DNA of 50,694 nucleotides from Basidioascus undulatus (taxonomy: Eukaryota). How positions within the stretch are numbered: position 1 is the stretch's first letter; each line of letters begins with the position of its first letter. Below are positions 80-31,490 of the stretch, piece by piece. The DNA lies in assembly GCA_000826855.1 (NCBI GenBank), contig JTLS01000016.1:1-50694 (forward strand). The letters are read 5' to 3'. The notes under the pieces were generated by a model. The model made no database searches, was not told the DNA's origin, and saw nothing but the letters and a program-made list of their open reading frames with translations. The position numbers were made by a program, and so were the translations under genes.

Positions 80-1405
80 CTCTGGATCCACTCCGGCTCC
101 CTACACCTCATCCCTCCCCAACACACCTCGCGCACCCCGCGCCGGCGGCGGCCGCACCTCCCCTCCGAAGCAGCGCTCGACGAGCGGGACGATTCCCTGC
201 GCCCCTCGGACTCCTCCGAATGGATCGACCACCTTGACGCTCTCGCCCTCGTTCGGAACCCCGCAGTCGACACGCGCGCCCCGCCCGAGGTCGAGCACGC
301 CGCCTTCAAGCGGACAGAGGTTTACCCCGGCGCGCTGCCATATCATCAGCACACGTTCCACGCGTTCGTGCCCAGGGACGTGGCGAGGGTGCTCGCGCTC
401 ACGGCGCCCGAGGGGGTGGTCGACCTGGGAGAAGGAGAGATGGGCGGGAGGGCGGAGGTCAGGCAGGCGGCATGTGAGTTGGCGCAGCGCGCCGTGGAGG
501 CATTTGCGAGTCGGGATGCGTCTGGGATGAGAGTGCGTCTTCTTTCTTCCATCTTCCATCTTCCTCTCTCCCTCCCTCCACCCTGACCTTTCTCCCTCCG
601 TCATCCAGGCCGCACAAAAGATGTCGCGGTTCCCGCCCTCCTCAACCCGCTCCTCCCCCGCGCGGGCGGCCCTCACCCGGACATCCTACGCCCAGCTGCT
701 CGGGCAGAAGTTCTACCCTCCAAAAGTGTTCGAGCCGTCCACGTGGCCGAAGGAGGGCGTGCCCGGGGTGGAGAGGGAGAGGCGGGAGAGGGGGATGAAA
801 TTGGTGCGTGTGGTGAGAGGGGGAGACGGGGGGTGGAAGAGATGGGTGGGGAGAGAAGGAAGCTGATGGAGTACGATGAGAACACAGGCGGTTGGGTTCG
901 AGATTTTGTATGCGGAGAGCAAGAGCAGTGTAAAGCCTAACGCGGCGGCGAGCGAGGCGGCTGCACTGTCGGATGTGCGTTTCTTTATTTCTTCTCGCCC
1001 CCTATTCTCCCCCTTCAAAATCCTTCCCTCTCCCCACTTCCTTCCTTACCCCCTTCTATCTCCTACCCCCCTCTCTCAAACCAGATCGAGGCCGACTGAC
1101 GCTCTCCCATCTTCCCCTCGCGCAGGCCCAAACCTCCGCCGACCCCGCTTACAAGGCGTACATCGACGGGCTCGCCAAGGCGGGCTACTTCGGCGGAGAG
1201 CTGGAGGGCAGCGTGCGATGGCAGGCGCGCGAGAGCGAGGCTCGCCGGGTGTGGTCCGAGTCGCGGGCGAGGGAGTGCGTGTTTTCTCCCGATTTCCCTC
1301 TTCCGATTTCCCGCTCTTTCCACCTCGTCCTCCTACCCACCACACCTTACTGACGGTACTGTTGGTTTGTGCGTGCCACCCCAGTCCCGACGCTTTCCGC
1401 CCGCC
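80..1405 (+). CDS. ECD: Ecdysoneless/SGT1 (hSGT1/ECD) family protein, middle portion; 5' end upstream of the window, 3' half missing
   Basis: Exons 80-532, 609-803, 888-974, 1126-1274, 1385-~1405 joined by GT-AG introns give LWIHSGSLHLIP...LAQRAVEAFASRD...MSRFPP...TRTSYAQLLGQKFYPPK...RGMKLAVGFEILY...LAKAGYFGGELEGS, motifs typical of the Ecd/SGT1 family. The expected acidic C-terminal half is absent. Confidence 0.85.
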
Positions 1406-20908: not shown

Positions 20909-23871
20909 ATGCCCTTCTGGCAAGATAGGCGGTACGCCTGCGCTTTGTTTGCTTGGCTGCCCAACCTTGTTCTGATGCATACCCACTCTCAGTGCGTACG
21001 CTGTTGCTGCCGTAGCGGCAATAGGAGGGGCGGCTTTTGGATATGTAAAGATCTTTATTGGGATACTCTGTGTACCTTGAGCCTTGGCACTGATCCTTTT
21101 CTCATTCGCATATAGGACACGTGAGTGTGGCTGATGCTCATAGAAGAGACTCATTGATATCGGGCTTCGACTTCAGCGGCATCGGTGGCGGCGTGATCGC
21201 CCTCAGCTCGTTCCAACACTCTTTCTACGGGACAAACCTGACCACTCCGAAGAAAGCTGAGCTCTCATCCAACATGTACGTCGCGGCACGGTCATATGTA
21301 AAGGAGACAAGCGGGTTACACGCTTTTAACACCCGACTTGCAGCGTTTCGATCCTTTTCGGAGGGGCGTTCTTCGGTTCCCTTTTCGTACCTGTAGCCGA
21401 TAGACTGGGTCGTAAATACTCCCTGGTGGTGAGTGATTCCTTGCTGATCGCATTAGGCCGTCTTTGCTGATAAGCCGGTGCCAACCGGCAGGTCGCAACC
21501 CTGCTCTTCCTATTCGGCGCATTCCTCCAGATCGGACAGACAAGCAATATCGACTATGTCTATGCGGGGAGGGCCGTGGCTGGTCTCGGGATTGGGATGA
21601 TCAGGTGAGTTCTCTGGTATCCCTTAGTTGGCGTACGGTGTTGAAAGAATTTGCATGCACACACAGCAACCTCTCGCCCATCTACATATCTGAGACTGCG
21701 CCCAAGCACATTCGGGGACGCCTTACCGGCCTTTTTCAGGTGCGTCGACCTCTGACGGTCTTGGGTGATTGGGGCGGCTGACGCGAGCCGGCTTTCAAGA
21801 TGTTGCTGGTCATCGGCGGTCGTGAGTCTCAGTTGCTCTCTCTTCTCCACTGCCTATACTGACAGTACGATTGTCGCCTTCCTTAACAGTTCTGGCCTAC
21901 TTTATCACGTACGGCTGCAGTGTCCACATGCCTACCACAAGCACCGTCCAATGGCGTCTGGTCGGTCAATCGTTCAATCCCGGACTGCCGCCTTCACCTC
22001 AGCTGAACCGCCCACCTACGCAGCCGCTCGGATTCCAAGCAGTTCCTGGCTTCTTCCTTCTCGTTGGGCTGTTCTTGATCCCCGAGTCTCCCGTAAGCGT
22101 CATCGCCGTTCCTCTCCCCTCCTTCGCTCATTCTTGGTCTCTGCGCAGCGATGGCTTGCCAGTGCGGGCCGCACTGAAGAGGCACGGGCCACCCTTGCGT
22201 ATATCCGTGCAAAAGACATTCACGACTCGGATGTCGTGGTTGAGTTTGCCGAGATCGAGGCTCAGGTAAGGATGCTAGTCGCGAGCACACCAGAATTGCA
22301 GCAACAACCGCTGACCCTCGAATGCAGCTCGCTGAAGAGAAGGCCGCTGGAGAAGGCTTGACGTGCGTCGTTTGCTCCCGCAGTCTCAGCACTGATTCCT
22401 CTACGAGATACTTACTTTCCCATGACCCAACCGATGGCATCTTGACTTTTCAGCCTGAGGGAGCTCTTGAAGCCTGCAAACCTCAAGCGGCTTGCGGCGG
22501 CCTATGCTGTGTCGATCGGACTTGTAAGTCTCTATTCCTCAATGATTCTTCTATACATGCTCTCAAAGTGTTACGCTACAGATCTTCTGTGGACACACCT
22601 CGTGAGATACCCGGAAGTTCGTAACTTTCGACTACGTGGCTGACGACCCCATTTTCAGGATCCTGTACTACGGTCCTACTATCGTAAGCGTCAAAGACCT
22701 TTATTGTACCCATGTCCCCAACTATTCATGCTAATATACCTTCCTACACAGTTCCAGACTGTGGGCTATGACAACCAAAACAGCGCATTGTTGGCTACCG
22801 GAATCTTCACAGGCAAGTCGACTCTCTTGTTATAACCGTTCCTGCCCGCTAATCAACTGCTCCCCACAGTCATCAAAGTTGTCTGTACCCCAATCTGCCT
22901 CTGGATCGGCATTGACCGATACGGTCGAAGGGCTGGGATGCTCTGGGGCTCAGCCGCGCAAGCAGCCGTCCTTTACATTCTCGGCGCGCTGTGCTACGTG
23001 AGGAACTGCCCTGCTTTCTAGCATGGGACGTGACCGCTGGACTGACTTTCAGTGCTTGCCTCTAGAAATGGCCTACTGGGGGCAAGAACCCCGACGGTCC
23101 TGGTCCTCAGAACCGGGCGATGGCCGCGATGTTGTATCTCTTCGTCATCGCGTATTCATTCAGCTGGGGTCCTATCGCTGTATGTATAACAGCCGCATTC
23201 TCTAACCTGCAAGATCAACACCGTTGACGACAATCCGTCCCGTTCCAGTGGATCTACGTTAGTACCGTCTTGACTGTCTATCGTGTCAGACTCCCTTCTC
23301 ACACAGCGCGTCGTTGAACAGATCAGCGAGATCTTCTCTGCTCGAACTCGCCAGATCGGTGTCGCCACTGCTATCGCACTCACTTGGCTTGCCAAGTAAG
23401 TCCTGCATTCGATGCTGTTGCATTCTTGTGCTCGTCCCATCCCCTCATTGTTGACCCATCTATTTGCGCAGCTACGCCATCTCCAAGTCCACCCCGCTCG
23501 CCTTGGTCGACATCAAGGCTGGATGGTGGATCGTCCTCGCGTCGTTCAACGCCGGTCTGTTTGCCCTCGTGTGGTTCTTGCCTGAGACCCGCGGAAAGAG
23601 CTTGGAGGAGATGGACGTAAGTTTTCTCCGCTGTCTTTGCCCTTTTCAGTGCCTTCGTTTACACTGACGGATATACTTGCAGATCCTGTTCGGATCCGCC
23701 ACAGCGGAGGTCAGGGAGAACAACATCTCGGCCGCGCTCGAGCACAAGCACAAGGAGAAGGAGGAAATGAACCTCTCTAAGGTGAAATTCGAGTTCTTTG
23801 ACAGTTTTTGCCCGATCCAAAACTGCTCCACTCACAAAAAGGCTTTTTAGAGCTCGATGGCGGAGGTTTAG
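20909..23871 (+). CDS. MFS sugar-porter family transporter (quinate permease-like), about 20 introns
   Basis: GGAAFGYDTG, ADRLGRK, YISETAPKHIRGRL, PESPRWL, DRYGRR, FSWGPIAWIYISEIF, PETRGKSLEEMD. The 3' end is 23871 with a final intron, or 23850 without it. Confidence 0.9.
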
Positions 23872-24548
23872 CCTCTGATAGCCAAGGCCGATGCGACGTG
23901 TATAGGCTTCACAGCAGCTGAAAAGAGTCGAACTGCATGGACGCTTTTTCGACCACAGGCCAAGCGTTGTTTGCCCTTGGCCAGGCTGTGCTGTGCGGCT
24001 ATATCGGAAGGTCCTGCATAGGCGGCGCGCAAGCTGTAAGGTACTTATGATGGAAGAAAGCTGGTCCAGCAGCCAAAGCAGAGGACTCAACGATGGGCAA
24101 ATCAGGAGACCCTTCTGATATTGATGGTGAAATTGAGCTGCAGCATACTGGTATGTGTTACCGTACTCACTTACACAGTACACAGAAGCAAGCATGGGCT
24201 AAAGGATCGCAGTATGCAAGGCCGGAGACAAGTTGGTGCTGCGTGTGAGCCTGTCACGCTGGGCGGCCCAGTCTGACTGCGTTTGCTAGGTATTCACTGA
24301 CAGTCAGAGGTAAATACTGAGACGTCGGTTGCCTGCAGTCTCAAGACTGCAATACCTGAACTGAATGATCTGACTGTGAGCACTGCGAGCGCACTTTCAG
24401 TTCGCGAATCCAGCGAGTTTCTCGAATTGCATCATAGGAACTCCTGAGAGGCGACTGGCAGTGTTGTAGCTTGCTGTTCCTCCGCTTCGTCTCTCTCTTC
24501 CTCCTTTCAAGTTCTCGTATTTCTCTTTTTCTCCTGGAACGGTCAACC

Positions 24549-25862
24549 ATGGCGCCGCCACCAGCCGCCCCCTCCCCGTCGCGACCGATCTTGGCCGCGC
24601 CGCTGCCGTCGTCGCAAGCGCCGCACCCGCACCCGCCGACCCTTCCGCGCCGGCCTACCCTGCCAGGCCTCTCCAAAGTCGGTGCCGCGCTCCGGAAGCC
24701 TTCGCACTCATCATCCACCCCTCCCGCGCCCCCGTCCCCCAAGCCGTCCTCGTCCTACATCGGGCGCGGCACCCCCGCGCGCGCGGCGCCCAAGCAAGCC
24801 CTCCCGTCCCGCACGTCCAAGGTCACCCAGAAGCACGTGTTCCTCCCTGAGGAGCTCCAGACGCGGCCGATCCCTGAGTCGGCGCGTCCACTGGTGACGG
24901 TGGAGGAGGAGGGCCCGCCGAGGGACGAACGCCCGGGGAGGAGCGAGCCGGAGAGGATGAGCAAGGAGGAGAGGGAGGAGGCTGGCTACGCGCGTTTGAC
25001 TGCGTATGCGGTGGGGGAGAGCTACAGGATGAAGCTCCTTGCAGCTTTCTCGAAGCGCGAGCATGGCGCTTGGACGAGGCAGTTTGATGAGGCCATCTAT
25101 GTCGTGCGTCTTCTCTCCCCATCCTTGCTCATTCAGACCAGGGCTGAATCGCGATCGGCAACCAGGTCTACCACCTCCCCCTCCTCCCCGGCTACTCCGC
25201 CGCGACCTCCGTGCGCTCCTCCCCGCCTGTCAAGTCCCCCGGCGGCGGCTCGATCCTGGACGTGCTGGAGGAGTCGGAGGACCTGCCGTACCAGGGTTCT
25301 TACTTCGCGCCGCCCGCCTCTCCGCCCCGCGGCGGCGACGCGTCCGTCGTCGGCAGCCCACCGAGGATGGACCCGGACGGGTTCCTCCCCGGCAGTCCGA
25401 CTGAGAACGAGCGCCCGACGGTGGAGGACGAGCCGCCGCGCAAGCAGCCGAAGCCGACGCGGAGGAAGAAGGCGAGGCAGTGGAGCGCCAGCAGCGATCC
25501 CTCCGCGAGGATCGCAGAGGCGATCCACTTCGACTATGTACGCTTTCTAGTCCACTGGCTTCATGCGAGGGAGTTCCACGTACTGACTGTGAGGGTTGTG
25601 CAGGGCGTGTCCGTCTTTTTCAACTTCACCGCCAACCAGGAGGCCATGATCCTCTCGGACTTGCAGCGCGCCGGCGCCGTGGTCCGGCCTCTGGGTGATG
25701 ACGAGCGGGAGGTGGAGGAATGTCATTACGCGTACGACTCCTCCGCGCATGCGAGCAAGATCTTCAACGATTTCTTCAGTACGCCTGCTCTCAAACTAAC
25801 AACCCCAAATCTGTTTCTCACGCTTCACGTGTCGACCAGCCTTCAAGACCAATTCCCACCTC
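24549..25862 (+). CDS. DUF155 (Rmd1/Rmd8, Sif2/Sif3-like) protein, N-terminal half only
   Basis: Exons 24549-25103, 25166-25537, 25604-25778, 25840-~25862: RTSKVTQKHVFLPE...RLTAYAVGESY...FDEAIYVVY...IAEAIHFDYGVSVFFNFT...EVEECHYAYD...KIFNDFFTFKTNSHL. The expected KLSISHALAQS segment and the rest of DUF155 are absent. Confidence 0.85.
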
Positions 25863-25904
25863 CCTACGTCCTCCCAGACTGAACACCCCACGTGTCTCCC
25901 TCAG

Positions 25905-26858
25905 ATTCTCGCGGCTATAGCAGGTCACTACGGGGAGCAGCACATTCGCGCGCGGTTCTCCGACCTGGCCGTGAGCTTTGTGCGCATGGCGGCGCGGTAC
26001 GAGGAGGAGACGCTCGGGTCGACGTCGATCGGCCACCCGTCGCAGCCGTACCTCAACAACCAGCTCGGAAGCGGGACGGTCTTCGCGGACGATTCTACGC
26101 GCGCACGCGAGCTCGCGGCCAACGCGCACCGCGTAGAGGCCTGGCGTGCGACGAAGAGCTACAGAAATTTCAGGGCGGTGCGTGTTTCTCGATCGATTGA
26201 GCTCAGGAGGGCTGATTCTGAGCTTGGGTGCGTGGGGTGGGATAGGACTGGCAACATCACGCGGGGACGCGCGCGATATGCGATATCGACGTCCTCTACC
26301 AGATCCAGCGGTTGCGGACGGCAAAGAACATGCCCGAGCCGGAGGCGGCCCTCATCTTTCGCTCGCTTGCCGATCGCGTTGACACGTACCCGCAAGTCGC
26401 CGAGGTGCGCATCGTCGTCTCGGGCTATGGGTAATGCTTACCCAAGAAGACGCGATGCTGATGCCCACCGCCCTCGCAGCTCTTGTCTCAACTCCCGCCG
26501 CAGCAGGACGGTCTCGTGCCCCTCGGCTTTGGGCTCTTCCACCCGCGCGAGAGCGTACGAGAAGCGACGCTGGAGCTCTTTATCAAGCTCCAAGCGTATC
26601 CTGTGCGTTCCTCCTCCCTTACCCACCCTCTTCCCTTCGTTTCCCTCAATCCCACCGCACAAGCCGACCCCCGATCTGCCCCCGCAGCTCGGCATCGTCC
26701 AACTATCCACGCTCAACACCTTCCACCGCCTCGCCTTCGTGCGCCTCATGGACCAGCGCTTTGGTCCCGGCGTATGGTCCCAGCAGCACCAGGGCTCCGC
26801 GTCCGCCTCGGCTCCGGAACACGAGGACGACGGCCCGCCTGCTGGGTCGGCTCAATAG
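25905..26858 (+). CDS. Afi1/MesA-like polarity protein, C-terminal portion only (in frame with the upstream DUF155 half)
   Basis: Exons 25905-26177, 26246-26404, 26480-26602, 26688-26858: ILAAIAGHYGEQHIRARF...FVRMAARYEEETLG...RELAANAHRVEAWRATKSY...DVLYQIQRLR...GLVPLGFGLFHP...LNTFHRLAF, resembling the MesA/Afi1 C-terminus. Confidence 0.75.
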   Translation: MLAAIAGHYGEQHIRARFSDLAVSFVRMAARYEEETLGSTSIGHPSQPYLNNQLGSGTVFADDSTRARELAANAHRVEAWRATKSYRNFRAVRVSRSIELRRADSELGCVGWDRTGNITRGRARYAISTSSTRSSGCGRQRTCPSRRRPSSFARLPIALTRTRKSPRCASSSRAMGNAYPRRRDADAHRPRSSCLNSRRSRTVSCPSALGSSTRARAYEKRRWSSLSSSKRILCVPPPLPTLFPSFPSIPPHKPTPDLPPQLGIVQLSTLNTFHRLAFVRLMDQRFGPGVWSQQHQGSASASAPEHEDDGPPAGSAQ

Positions 26859-29441
26859 CCCGCGTGCGACTGGACGGGACGCGTTGCGTTCATACCCCGC
26901 CTTTTCTTCTTTCGTGTGCAACTGCTTTCGGTTTACTTTTGCACTTTGCCTTTTGCTTTTGCGAGGACGCGCTGTTGTTCACGCATCCATACTCTGCACT
27001 GTCTTGTCGCTTGGCCGGGATGCGGCTTCTGGTCAGTAGGACTGGAGAAAAGGGCGGCAATTCAGCAAATAATTCAAATATGATAGTACAGCGCCGGATC
27101 ACGACGTCGTTATGGCAAAGCGTGAGCCGACAGATGCCACTACAGGAGACACTCCAGACGCTGGAGGCTGCTTGAGTCTTCCGTGCTGGGGACCTGGCGT
27201 CCCTTGACAAGCCCCGTGTTCGTACTGGATGAGTTTGGCATGCCGCTCCTTCAAACACACTAATCTTTCTAACATACCCGTTCCACTGGAGTCCGCTGCT
27301 GCTGCCGAGCATGTGTCGCCACGGGCGAACGCCCGGGAAACCTAAGAGCAGACGAGGCTGAGTGTGCGAAGGGGCGACAGCGCGAAAAGAGACGCTGGGA
27401 GAGCGTGGGAAAGGGGCGCTAAGCTCTGAAACCACGCCTCGACACATGCTCGATGCCGAGCCTGGTGAGGTGCGGGCCCTTGCCGTAGTTGGACACGCAA
27501 TGAAAGACTGGACCCGGGACGCGAAAGGGAATTCATAAACGTAGTTCGTATTGTGTGAAATAATTTGCCTGTTCACTGCTGTTCAATTTGCCAGGGTCAA
27601 CGCAGCTGCAGCTGCGTCGTGGTACGGAGGCTTGAAAACGCTCGCAGACTGTGGGCACCTTCCATTCAGCCGTATTGCAATTCCATTACGATCTGACCTT
27701 TCTTCTTCTGCTTTTGGCCGATGAAGCGTTCAAAAGTTCAGAAAGAGACCTACTGGTTCCTCCTGATGCCTACGCAGGCGTTCTCAGGCTTCAAACAACC
27801 GAACAGACGCCCCACCGATATTGTAGCAGCCAGGCAGTACTGCTATGAGGCAGTGCTACCCGAACTGAGTCTGAAGTGTTTTCAGACTCAACACGTATTT
27901 GCACTAAACTGCTGGCAGAGCCAACCCTCGTCTTCGAATGTCGTCAGTCAAATTGCAGACCACGCAACTGCGCTGTACCCTTCCATCACGCACCCACGGA
28001 ATCACCCAGACTACTGATTATCACAGTAAGGAAAAGGCCTTCTTCTTTTCTTCAGCAGCATGGAGCTCGAAACTGTTGTAGAATCCCACGTTATTCTCGA
28101 TCTCAATGGGCGTCGGCGCATATCCTGGGGAACACTACTGATTGGAGGGAGAGAGGAACAAATACCGCTTTGTTTATCTTGGTTTGACCACGAACGTGGA
28201 GAAGCGATAGTACTGATTCCGTGAGCTGTAGCTCTCCTTCGTAGCCACGCTTTTGAGAGACATCGCGCCGCCCGTTCTGTCACAGATATGGGTTAAGCCC
28301 AGCTAAACGGGTTGTGCTTATTTTCCATAGATATAGATACAGGGTAAATCTTTGTATTTACAGAGCGTTAACGCCTGGACTGTCGACAGTACGCACTCAG
28401 CTGGGCTCGGTCTTGTCCAATGCTGAAAAACGGCCAGTTTCCAACGGGCCTTTCGAACTGCGTTGTTTCTCGATAATACCGCATGGAGCCGACCCCCTCT
28501 ACCCTGAATGACTCAAGAGATTTCTTTCTTCCCGACGGGGGGAAACCTTTGGGCGGCGCCGAGTCGAAGCCAGCCCTCATGCCAGCGCTGTCCAGCAGCA
28601 GTCGAGGGCGACACTAAACAGCCACGGACACTATACACGCACTCATACACCACTTTTTTTCTAGGCGTTAATGCATGCACTATTTTTCTGACACATGGTC
28701 TCGTAAGACAACCAACGATAGCAACATTGCTTGTTTAGAACAGACTCAGGCTTGGCTGGCTCTTGCGGTGAGACATTGAATCACAGCGAGGTGTAGCACA
28801 AGGTCAAAAGAGCCTCCTGGTTTCATTTTACACTCATCCACGCGAGGTATGTTTAGGTGGGCGTTCGCAGGAATTAAAACTGCAAGACACCTTCACAACG
28901 AAAAGTTCTGACGGACAGGCCCAACCTGGGTTTGGCAGAAACGCATTGTTTGTCAGGTTTTATTATTTTCAAGAAAAAAATGACAGGTATCTTCATAGTA
29001 GTAGGTTTGTTGCACTCGTTACGCTGTTCAAGACCAGAAGCACAACCGGTGTTGAAGCTTGAAGGCGAAAGGGGAAGGGTGTCAAGGGCAGCCATCACTC
29101 GGTTGGTTACGTGTCTACTCTTTGCAAGCCAAGTAACATTTCCAAAGCCTATGGAACAGCTCCACCATCTGGCAGAGCTCTGAGATGGACAAACGCTGAG
29201 GATCTGTTCTGGTTTATTACTTGGCGAGACTAGCGGAACTGCACTCACGTGATAAAAGATCTCGTTTCGGATCTTCAGAAATCCTTGTCGCCGGCCTAAG
29301 AGCGCGAGTCCAAGATTTGGCATCGACAGCACCCTTCCCTTCGCACTTTACAGCCAACCGTCTTCTTTCATCCTCCAGCGGTGAGCACGCATGCACATTA
29401 TCGTTGGGAATTAAGCGCTCAATTCCCTCCAACAGTCAGCA

Positions 29442-31490
29442 ATGTCGAGCTTGATCAGCTCGCTCGCCTGGGTCCGGCGCGGCGTCGCCAAGCAGCAGCC
29501 GGCGAAGTACAACCTCGACGACAAGGAGCTCTCGCGCGTCGCCGAGCTCGCGCGTATCGAGCTCGAGGACGCCAAGACCGAGCTTGCGCGCGCGGAAAAG
29601 GCCGCGCAGGAGATGGGCGAGAGGAACGGGGAGGACGAGGACGAGGGGATGGACGAAGGCGAGGAGGAGGGCGAGGGCGAGTGGGAAGAGTGAGTCTCGT
29701 TTCTTTTGCCTGTGTTGGAGGAGAACATCAGGGGTAGAGGGATCTGGAGAGGTCGCATAACTACATCTTACGGCTTGACCTGACCACTATTGGTCCCATT
29801 AGTGAACCGGATGCCGACAACATGGACGAGGACGCGCCAAAACCTCGGGACCCGAACGACCTTTCCGAGTACAACTTGGACGATTACGACAACGAGGAAT
29901 CTCAAGGCGCTGGTATGCACTATGTTTCCTTGCCGGCCGCGATGGCCGTCATTGACGCTGACCGGCACTGCTCACAGCAATGGGAGCGTTCAGCAACATC
30001 AAGGGCCTCACCTACTACCGCAATAACGAGGAGGACCCTTACATCACGCTGAAGGAGGTGCGTGGTTCCCGAGCTTCTGAGGATCTGGCGCCCCGTCTGA
30101 TGAAGCTCCGCACTTCCTTCAGGACGAGGAGGAGGAGAAGGAGGAGCTTGAGGTCCTGCCGACCGACAACATGATCGTCACCGCCAAGACCGAGGAGGAC
30201 GTTTCGCAGCTCGAGATATACGTCTACGACGACGCCCAGGAAAACCTCTACGTCCACCACGACATCATGCTCCCCGCCTTTCCCCTTTGCCTCGAATGGC
30301 TCGACTTCCCTCCCGCTTCCTCCTCCACCGACCCGACTGCCTCCGCCTCTGATCCCGCCTCTTCTTTCGGCAACTACATCGCCGTCGGCACGTTCGAACC
30401 CGAAATCGAGATCTGGTCGCTCGACGTGGTCGACGGCCTGTACCCGGATGCGCTCCTCGGTCGGCCCGACGAGTCCAAGCTCGCCGCGCTCAATTCCGTT
30501 CCCCTCGGAACGGGCAAGAAGAAGAAGAAGAAGCTGAAGCCGCGGACGGTCAACGCCGAGTACCACGTCGACGCGGTCCTCTCCCTCTCCTGGAACCGCG
30601 CGCACCGCAACCTCCTCGCGTCCGGCTCGGCCGACAAGACCGTCAAGCTGTGGGATCTCAACTTGCCGTCCACTAGCGGCGCGATCCGGAGCTTCGACGT
30701 CCACGGGGACAAGGTGCAGGCCGTTGAGTGGAACCCGGTGGACCCAACCGTACTCCTTACTGGCGGTTTCGACAAGACCGTCCGGACGTTCGACTCGCGA
30801 TCGCCCGCCCAGGGCGTCGGCGCCAAGGTCGCAGCGGACGTGGAAGTCTGCAAGTGGGATCCTTGGAATCCGCATAACTTCTATGTGCGCCTTTCCCTTT
30901 GCTGCGAGGATGCGGCTCGCTGACAGCTGGCTTTGGGTACAGGTCTCGACCGAGGACGGCCTTGTCCAGTACTTCGACGCTCGCAACCTCTCCACTCTCT
31001 CCGCCGGCAAGGCGCCGTCGAATCCGACTTCCGCCCTTTATATGCTCTCCGCCCATGACGGTGCCGTCTCGGCGCTCGATATCAGCCCACACGTGCGGGG
31101 CTGTGTCGCGACGGGCGGGACGGACAAGCTCGTCAAGATCTGGAACGTTGCGGAGGCCGAGGGCGGCAAGCGCGCGGTCAGCATGGTCACCAGCCGAGAT
31201 CTCAACGTGGTACGTATGGGGTCCCATGCTGCTCGGGGGACCAGTACTCATCAACGGCTGTCGAGTAGGGCAAGGTGTTCTCGGTCTCCTTCTCTCCCGA
31301 CGACCCTCTCGTCCTCGCAGCGGCCGGCTCAAAGGCCAAGCTGCAAGTCTGGGACGTCGGAACCAACCCGGGCGCACGCAAGGCGTTTGCTGGCCGGGTA
31401 GCGAGCGGCGCCCAGCTGCGCGAGCGGTCGGGCGAAGGTGTCATCGGGGTGGAGTCGGACGACGAGGGTCTTAGTGACGGGGACGATTAG
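29442..31490 (+). CDS. PWP1: Periodic tryptophan protein 1 (WD40, ribosome biogenesis)
   Basis: MSSLISSLAWVRRGVA, DLSEYNLDDYD, NLYVHHDIMLPAFPLCLEW, NYIAVGTFEPEIEIWSLDVVD, LLASGSADKTVKLWDL. Confidence 0.95.

What the first reader, a model, noticed from the sequence alone, without database searches (positions are those of the whole stretch)
25840..25905. In-frame chimera: DUF155/Rmd8 N-terminal half joined to an Afi1/MesA C-terminus through an intron tail
Seen: about 23 nt into exon 4 (TFKTNSHL) the DUF155 sequence stops. The next 42 nt look like an intron 3' end (CTGAAC branch-like site, CTCCCTCAG acceptor, no donor), followed by four Afi1/MesA-like exons. The frame stays open: TFKTNSHL-PTSSQTEHPTCLPQ-ILAAIAGHYGE. 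Known: these are normally separate genes, so the DUF155 core and the Afi1 N-terminal domains (probably several kb) are missing. Inference: either a collapsed gap or mis-join, or a real deletion producing a translatable fusion protein. A random join is in frame about one time in three.
Basis: partly seen in the sequence, partly recalled or inferred. Interest (0 to 1): 0.7.

Follow-up and report, generated by a model that had tools for sequence, protein, structure and literature searches.

The report
False gene fusion from assembly mis-join
The apparent fusion of two ordinary fungal genes is an error in the draft genome, where two unrelated pieces were joined at an 11-letter word they share, and the fungus carries and splices both genes normally.

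Summary
The letters are as described, but the fusion is an assembly artefact. The DUF155 gene and the Afi1/MesA gene are joined at an 11-nt word they share (25853-25863). In 3 of 3 public runs laid on the region, no listed contig crosses this point. The DNA contigs from the left continue into the real end of DUF155 exon 4 and a GT donor. Those from the right begin with the real MesA donor. The spliced contigs of the third run give two separate, normal transcripts. The 'missing' halves are in the same assembly at contig ends: the DUF155 C-half at the start of C2640 and the Afi1 N-half on C945. Both ends carry 45-73 nt tails copied from other contigs, so short-overlap mis-joins recur in this draft. 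The open frame is a roughly 1-in-5 chance. A rare real rearrangement is not strictly excluded, because contigs hide minor variants (about 3%).

The parts
24549..25103 (+). DUF155 (Rmd8-like) gene, coding exon 1
   Evidence: 64% identical to Wallemia mellicola DUF155 protein P0002; spliced X3 contig covers 24434-25103 and joins to 25166
25166..25537 (+). DUF155 gene exon 2
   Evidence: X3 contig piece 25166-25537; GT..AG introns of 62 and 66 nt on either side
25604..25778 (+). DUF155 gene exon 3, start of the PF02582 domain
   Evidence: PF02582 positions 7-62, E 1.8e-6; X3 piece 25604-25778
25840..25863 (+). DUF155 gene exon 4, cut 5 nt before its real donor
   Evidence: X1 and X2 contigs end at 25863 and go on with 5 exon letters (completing Leu-Lys) and a GT; X3 goes on with the same 5 letters spliced to the LSLAHALA exon
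25853..25863 (+). 11-nt word shared by DUF155 exon 4 and the MesA intron: the mis-join
   Evidence: Left contigs end at 25863 and right contigs start at 25853 in X1 and X2; the word occurs twice in the window and about 22 times by chance in 32 Mb
25853..25904 (+). Last 52 nt of a 62-nt MesA intron; its first 10 nt with the GT donor are absent from the window
   Evidence: The loose end before 25853 in X1 and X2 shows an exon end, then a GT donor 10 nt upstream; other introns of both genes are about 61-85 nt
25905..26177 (+). Afi1/MesA gene, first exon held in the window
   Evidence: 66% identical to P0006 residues 551-642, E 2.1e-28; the X3 contig joins it to 69 upstream letters that end in a DNLFMDE-type peptide (my translation), like SDNIFMNE in Wallemia
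26246..26404 (+). Afi1/MesA exon
   Evidence: P0006 638-697, 53%; X3 piece 26245-26402
26480..26602 (+). Afi1/MesA exon
   Evidence: P0006 from residue 696, 50%; GT..AG borders
26688..26858 (+). Afi1/MesA last coding exon with stop
   Evidence: X3 piece 26688-26980; the frame ends at 26858

Best explanation
The junction exists only in this draft assembly. Two ordinary, separate genes each had a thinly covered stretch where contigs stopped. The sequence ending in DUF155 exon 4 was merged with the sequence starting in a MesA intron, because both hold the same 11-nt pyrimidine-rich word. The real neighbours were left at the ends of other contigs (C2640, C945), and the letters right at the two true joints were lost. 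Shown: the break, both true continuations, both normal spliced forms, and where the missing halves lie. Inferred: how the join arose. I favour contig extension or merging on a short overlap by the assembly software (about 65%) over a chimeric library molecule made by template switching (about 35%). No fusion protein is made.
For: (1): none of the contigs listed for X1, X2 or X3 crosses 25853-25863, and no joint there is listed. Loose ends at 25863 and 25853 (25903 in the spliced run) stand in all 3 runs. (2) Left contigs continue as Leu-Lys plus a GT donor, as homologs predict (TFKTNSHYLKLSLAHALAQS in P0002). Right contigs begin with a normal donor giving a 62-nt intron. (3) X3's contigs skip GT..AG introns and one ends in A's, so I read it as RNA. 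Its 1,840-nt DUF155 contig has 599 nt beyond 25863. The C2640 exons plus the 5 lost letters need 437 nt before the last exon, and the remaining 162 nt would end 66 nt past the stop. (4) The parts tile single homologs without overlap: P0002 1-about 318 in the window and 320-465 on C2640; P0006 2-303 on C945 and 544-753 in the window. (5) C2640:1-45 is identical to the interior of C2852, and C945:1-73 to the interior of C631, so all 3 broken ends of these two genes that I examined are joined to foreign sequence. (6) No DUF155 hit in the 288 proteins fetched with MesA queries; no Afi1/SPA in 5 of 5 DUF155 homologs.
Against: Only re-assembled contigs were laid, not raw reads, and contigs drop rare variants. 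Tables 5 and 8 were cut (6 joints and 16 pieces not shown). The 3 runs are at most 2 samples, and X1 and X2 are each flagged as a possible source of the DNA. X3 is on record as 'DNA?'; that it is RNA is my inference. The RNA contig differs from C2640 by one synonymous letter near the exon 5 start. The MesA middle (residues 304-543, SPA domain) was not found in the assembly. That the two contig-end tails are foreign is inferred from their copies inside other contigs; no reads were laid there.
Confidence: 0.96

Rival explanations
1. A real microhomology-mediated rearrangement (translocation or long deletion) in a minority of nuclei of the sequenced culture, kept by the original assembler and dropped by the re-assemblies. 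It would encode an in-frame DUF155-N/MesA-C protein lacking most of DUF155 and both Afi1 and SPA domains.
For: The 11-nt microhomology fits microhomology-mediated end joining (established knowledge, recalled). The frame is open. Contigs cannot show the absence of rare variants. In Laetiporus sulphureus the two genes appear to share a scaffold, 19 accession numbers apart, so loose linkage in the window's organism is possible.
Against: Both intact arrangements are the assembled form in both DNA runs and in the spliced run. Two more short-overlap joins sit at the partner ends, which points to a habit of the assembly. The open frame is a 0.22 chance event.
Confidence: 0.03
2. A fixed deletion or fusion allele, or a collapsed gap between tandem neighbours.
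For: Only the window sequence itself: no N, and an open frame.
Against: The supposedly deleted halves are in the assembly and in spliced contigs. X1's left contig runs 23,086 nt past the junction without meeting the MesA 3' half. C2640 and C945 do not overlap each other or the window. The genes are adjacent in 0 of 8 genome pairs judged by locus tags, accessions or contig lengths.
Confidence: 0.01

Closest known systems
DUF155 proteins (Pfam PF02582, RMND1/Sif2-Sif3/Mrx10; the yeast name Rmd8 is recalled, from no call)
   Same: Exons in the window plus C2640 rebuild a full-length orthologue: 64% and 82% identical in parts to W. mellicola P0002, with a C-terminal hydrophobic stretch.
   Different: No biological difference found; the gene is only split over two contigs in this draft.
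Afi1/MesA (Mes1) proteins, Pfam PF07792 + PF08616, DENN/Avl9-related (PMC9331856, passages seen)
   Same: N-terminal Afi1 region on C945 (76% to P0006 31-116) and C-terminal region in the window (50-61%).
   Different: The SPA-domain middle is missing from the draft. X1's contig has 838 nt upstream of the junction, and X3 shows the next exon upstream.
Chimeric contig joined at a short shared word (mis-assembly or template-switch chimera; general knowledge, recalled)
   Same: Overlap of 11 nt, true continuations present in re-assemblies, partners stranded at contig ends, same pattern at neighbouring ends.
   Different: Whether software or a library molecule made the join was not resolved.

Membership tests
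Real gene fusion | Genomic sequence crosses the junction in independent data | tested here: not met
   0 of 3 runs list a contig across 25853-25863; loose ends there in all 3
Real gene fusion | A transcript crosses the junction | tested here: not met
   X3's spliced contigs give two separate parental forms; a rare transcript would not show in contigs
Real gene fusion by deletion | The intervening halves are lost from the genome | tested here: not met
   DUF155 C-half on C2640, Afi1 N-half on C945
Real gene fusion | The same fusion or adjacency in relatives | tested here: not met
   No DUF155 in 288 proteins, no PF02582 listed for the 120 shown of 1,662 hits, adjacent in 0 of 8 genome pairs
Rare sub-population rearrangement | A minority of raw reads cross the junction | not testable with these tools
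   All three holders are kept as contigs, not raw reads
Assembly mis-join | Short shared word at the join, both true continuations recoverable | tested here: met
   11-nt overlap and loose ends in X1, X2, X3
Assembly mis-join | True partners lie at contig ends elsewhere in the draft | tested here: met
   C2640 start and C945 start
DUF155 (PF02582) | PF02582 domain over the curated cut-off | tested here: met
   Positions 7-62 in the window, 28.6 bits; 75-141 on C2640, 72.2 bits; cut-off 27
Afi1/MesA | Afi1 domain PF07792 | tested here: met
   On C945, over the cut-off
Afi1/MesA | SPA domain PF08616 | tested here: inconclusive
   Not found in the draft; it falls in the gap between C945 and the window (P0006 323-434)

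The most novel reading that the evidence does not exclude
A minority of nuclei in the sequenced culture carry a real microhomology-mediated rearrangement. It joins the DUF155 gene to the 3' part of MesA and turns 42 nt of intron into an in-frame linker, a newborn chimeric gene caught in a heterokaryon. The intact alleles dominate and hide it in re-assembled contigs.
Probability: 0.03. Interest if true: 0.4.

Novelty: not a real feature. Interest (0 to 1): 0.04.

Why it matters
It has no biological meaning. The practical lesson concerns this draft (32.1 Mb in 2,992 contigs): it contains joins on short overlaps, at 3 of the 3 broken gene ends examined. Other 'fusions', truncations or odd neighbours read from this assembly should be checked against sequencing runs first. 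The window is itself two unrelated genomic pieces joined at 25853-25863, so gene order across that point is meaningless.

Tried and rejected
- Homolog search with the 91-aa MesA exon among longer proteins found nothing; the all-representatives search then found 250.
- The own-genome search for the SPA domain was blank, and its control rang nowhere, so it is no evidence of loss.
- 20-nt patterns from the two true flanks had no match in the draft, consistent with dropped sequence but not proof.
- No RNA holder was listed on record.
- C168 and C2865 were considered as the DUF155 continuation and rejected as paralogues (39% and 52% to P0002, against 77-85% for C2640).
- The 1,098-aa W. ichthyophaga P0003 was checked as a possible natural fusion; Pfam shows DUF155 only.
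They proved to be a copy of C631 sequence, and that reading was dropped.
- An exon border was off by one and was corrected. One exon reference (26690-26856) was out of frame, so its blank means nothing.
- A paper search on chimeric reads and microhomology was seen as a listing only, and nothing from it is used.
- Earlier findings for this genome: none.
- No structure or complex prediction was run, since the chimera is not real.

Full report
Setting. The window is the whole of contig C667 of a 32.1-Mb draft in 2,992 contigs, without N. It is intron-rich fungal DNA. The best protein hits of both genes are from Wallemia and other basidiomycetes.

Observation. The DUF155 gene has exons at 24549-25103, 25166-25537, 25604-25778 and from 25840, with GT..AG introns of 62, 66 and 61 nt. 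Exon 3 matches PF02582 positions 7-62. After TFKTNSHL the frame runs through 14 codons into ILAAIAGHYGE without a stop. The exon 25905-26177 has 250 relatives at E up to 0.001, the best a 771-aa W. hederae protein at 66%. Of 22 longer hits scanned, 17 carry both Afi1 and SPA, 3 carry SPA only, and 2 are unrelated models. MesA/Mes1 homologs are described with Afi1 and SPA domains in PMC9331856 (passages seen). The open frame is weak evidence: 65% of shuffles of the 42 nt have no stop, about 0.22 with phase.

The missing halves are in the assembly. PF02582 positions 71-167 lie at the very start of contig C2640. Against W. mellicola P0002, the window covers residues 1 to about 318 and C2640 covers 320-465 at 77-85%. 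The homolog reads TFKTNSHYLKLSLAHALAQS, so only two codons are unaccounted for. C168 and C2865 hold paralogues (39%, 52%). The Afi1 domain lies on C945, running toward the contig's end. Against P0006, C945 covers 2-303 and the window 544-753. Residues 304-543, with the SPA domain, were not found. C2640 and C945 share no sequence with each other or with the window. A deletion cannot explain halves that are still there.

Sequencing runs decide it. Three runs hold the stretch, from at most two samples and two studies, and two are flagged as possible sources. All are contigs. Laid on 22000-30000, no listed contig crosses the junction. In X1 a 25,251-nt contig covers 23699-25863 and goes on for 23,086 nt unlike the stretch. 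A 25,621-nt contig covers 25853-30000, with 838 nt left over on the upstream side. X2 shows the same two ends, with 72 and 18 loose letters. The left loose end supplies 5 exon letters (completing Leu-Lys) and a GT donor. The right loose end supplies an exon end and a GT donor 10 nt before 25853, which makes a 62-nt intron. The two sides overlap by 11 nt, 25853-25863, a word that belongs to both genes. About 22 copies of such a word are expected by chance in the genome.

The spliced run agrees. X3 is on record as 'DNA?', but its contigs skip GT..AG introns and one ends in A's, so I read it as RNA (inference). Its DUF155 contig (1,840 nt) leaves the window at 25863 and continues straight into the LSLAHALA exon. 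The 599 nt beyond fit the C2640 exons: 437 nt before the last exon, with the rest ending 66 nt past the stop. Its MesA contig (919 nt) enters the window at 25903 from 69 other letters whose last 30 translate (by me) to a DNLFMDE-type peptide, matching SDNIFMNE in Wallemia. Both genes are therefore transcribed and spliced in the normal form. Limits: contigs hide rare variants, 6 joints and 16 pieces were not shown, and the RNA contig differs from C2640 by one synonymous letter near the exon 5 start.

A habit of this assembly. The first 45 nt of C2640 are identical to C2852:780-824 and then diverge. The first 73 nt of C945 are identical to C631:5234-5306, where an open frame runs through on both sides; on C945 they follow a GT donor through an imperfect pyrimidine-rich likeness. 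So all 3 broken ends of these two genes that I examined are attached to foreign sequence. That the two tails are foreign is inferred, since no reads were laid on them. In X2, two contigs also meet at 25309-25318 with only 10 nt of overlap, where X1 is continuous: thin cover occurs in this gene. I infer that low-coverage ends were extended or merged on short overlaps. Chimeric library molecules formed at microhomologies (recalled knowledge) would look the same, and I cannot separate the two without raw reads.

Relatives. None of the 120 listed MesA homologs (of 1,662; lengths 424-1,350 only) shows PF02582. Three DUF155 queries found no hit among 288 proteins fetched with MesA queries. 5 of 5 DUF155 homologs carry no Afi1 or SPA. 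By locus tags, accessions and contig lengths, the genes are far apart or on different contigs in 7 of 8 genomes: four W. ichthyophaga, two W. mellicola and Mycena capillaripes. In 1 of 8, Laetiporus sulphureus, they appear to share a 436-kb scaffold 19 accession numbers apart. They are adjacent in none. The Laetiporus case leaves loose linkage open for the window's organism, but at more than 23 kb.

Verdict. This is an assembly mis-join at an 11-nt shared word (confidence 0.96). A rare real rearrangement in some nuclei has about 0.03, and a fixed fusion or a collapsed tandem gap about 0.01. It is not a real feature; interest 0.04. The names Rmd8 and alpha-COP are recalled and come from no call. 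No supplements were consulted. I make no claim about what is or is not in print.

Noticed in passing
window 22000-23728 (sugar-transporter-like gene, weak PF00083 hit): Contig depth is about double that of the flanks (X1 88 against 41-50; X2 42 against 14-17), and the run contigs differ from the window at a few places. C1086:1-212 matches 23571-23782 at 92% and carries the alternative letters; C338's end matches 20913-21260 at 85%. Probably a recently duplicated transporter, collapsed in assembly.
   Followed up: partly
G000:C2640:1-45 and G000:C945:1-73: Contig-end tails identical to the interiors of C2852 and C631: two more probable mis-joins.
   Followed up: yes
G000:C2640:783-855 (L009): The last intron of the DUF155 gene appears to use a GC donor (GC..AG, 73 nt) by exon bookkeeping; not checked with reads.
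   Followed up: no
G000:C168 end (L002): A DUF155 paralogue is also cut by a contig end in G+C-rich coding sequence, suggesting that coverage drops in such genes.
   Followed up: no
window 23179-23322: X3's spliced contig has 9 letters between the two sides of this 142-nt skip (table 5c): probably a 9-nt micro-exon in the transporter gene.
   Followed up: no
G000:C945 about 1780-2477 (L007): A WD40 gene starting MQMLTKFES lies head to head with MesA; it looks like coatomer alpha (recalled, not tested).
   Followed up: no
window 29400-31490: WD40 beta-propeller gene with an acidic N-terminus; it resembles Pwp1 (recalled, not tested).
   Followed up: no
Laetiporus sulphureus, accessions KZT04460.1 and KZT04479.1: The DUF155 and MesA orthologues appear to share one scaffold, 19 accession numbers apart; chance or old loose linkage.
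   Followed up: no
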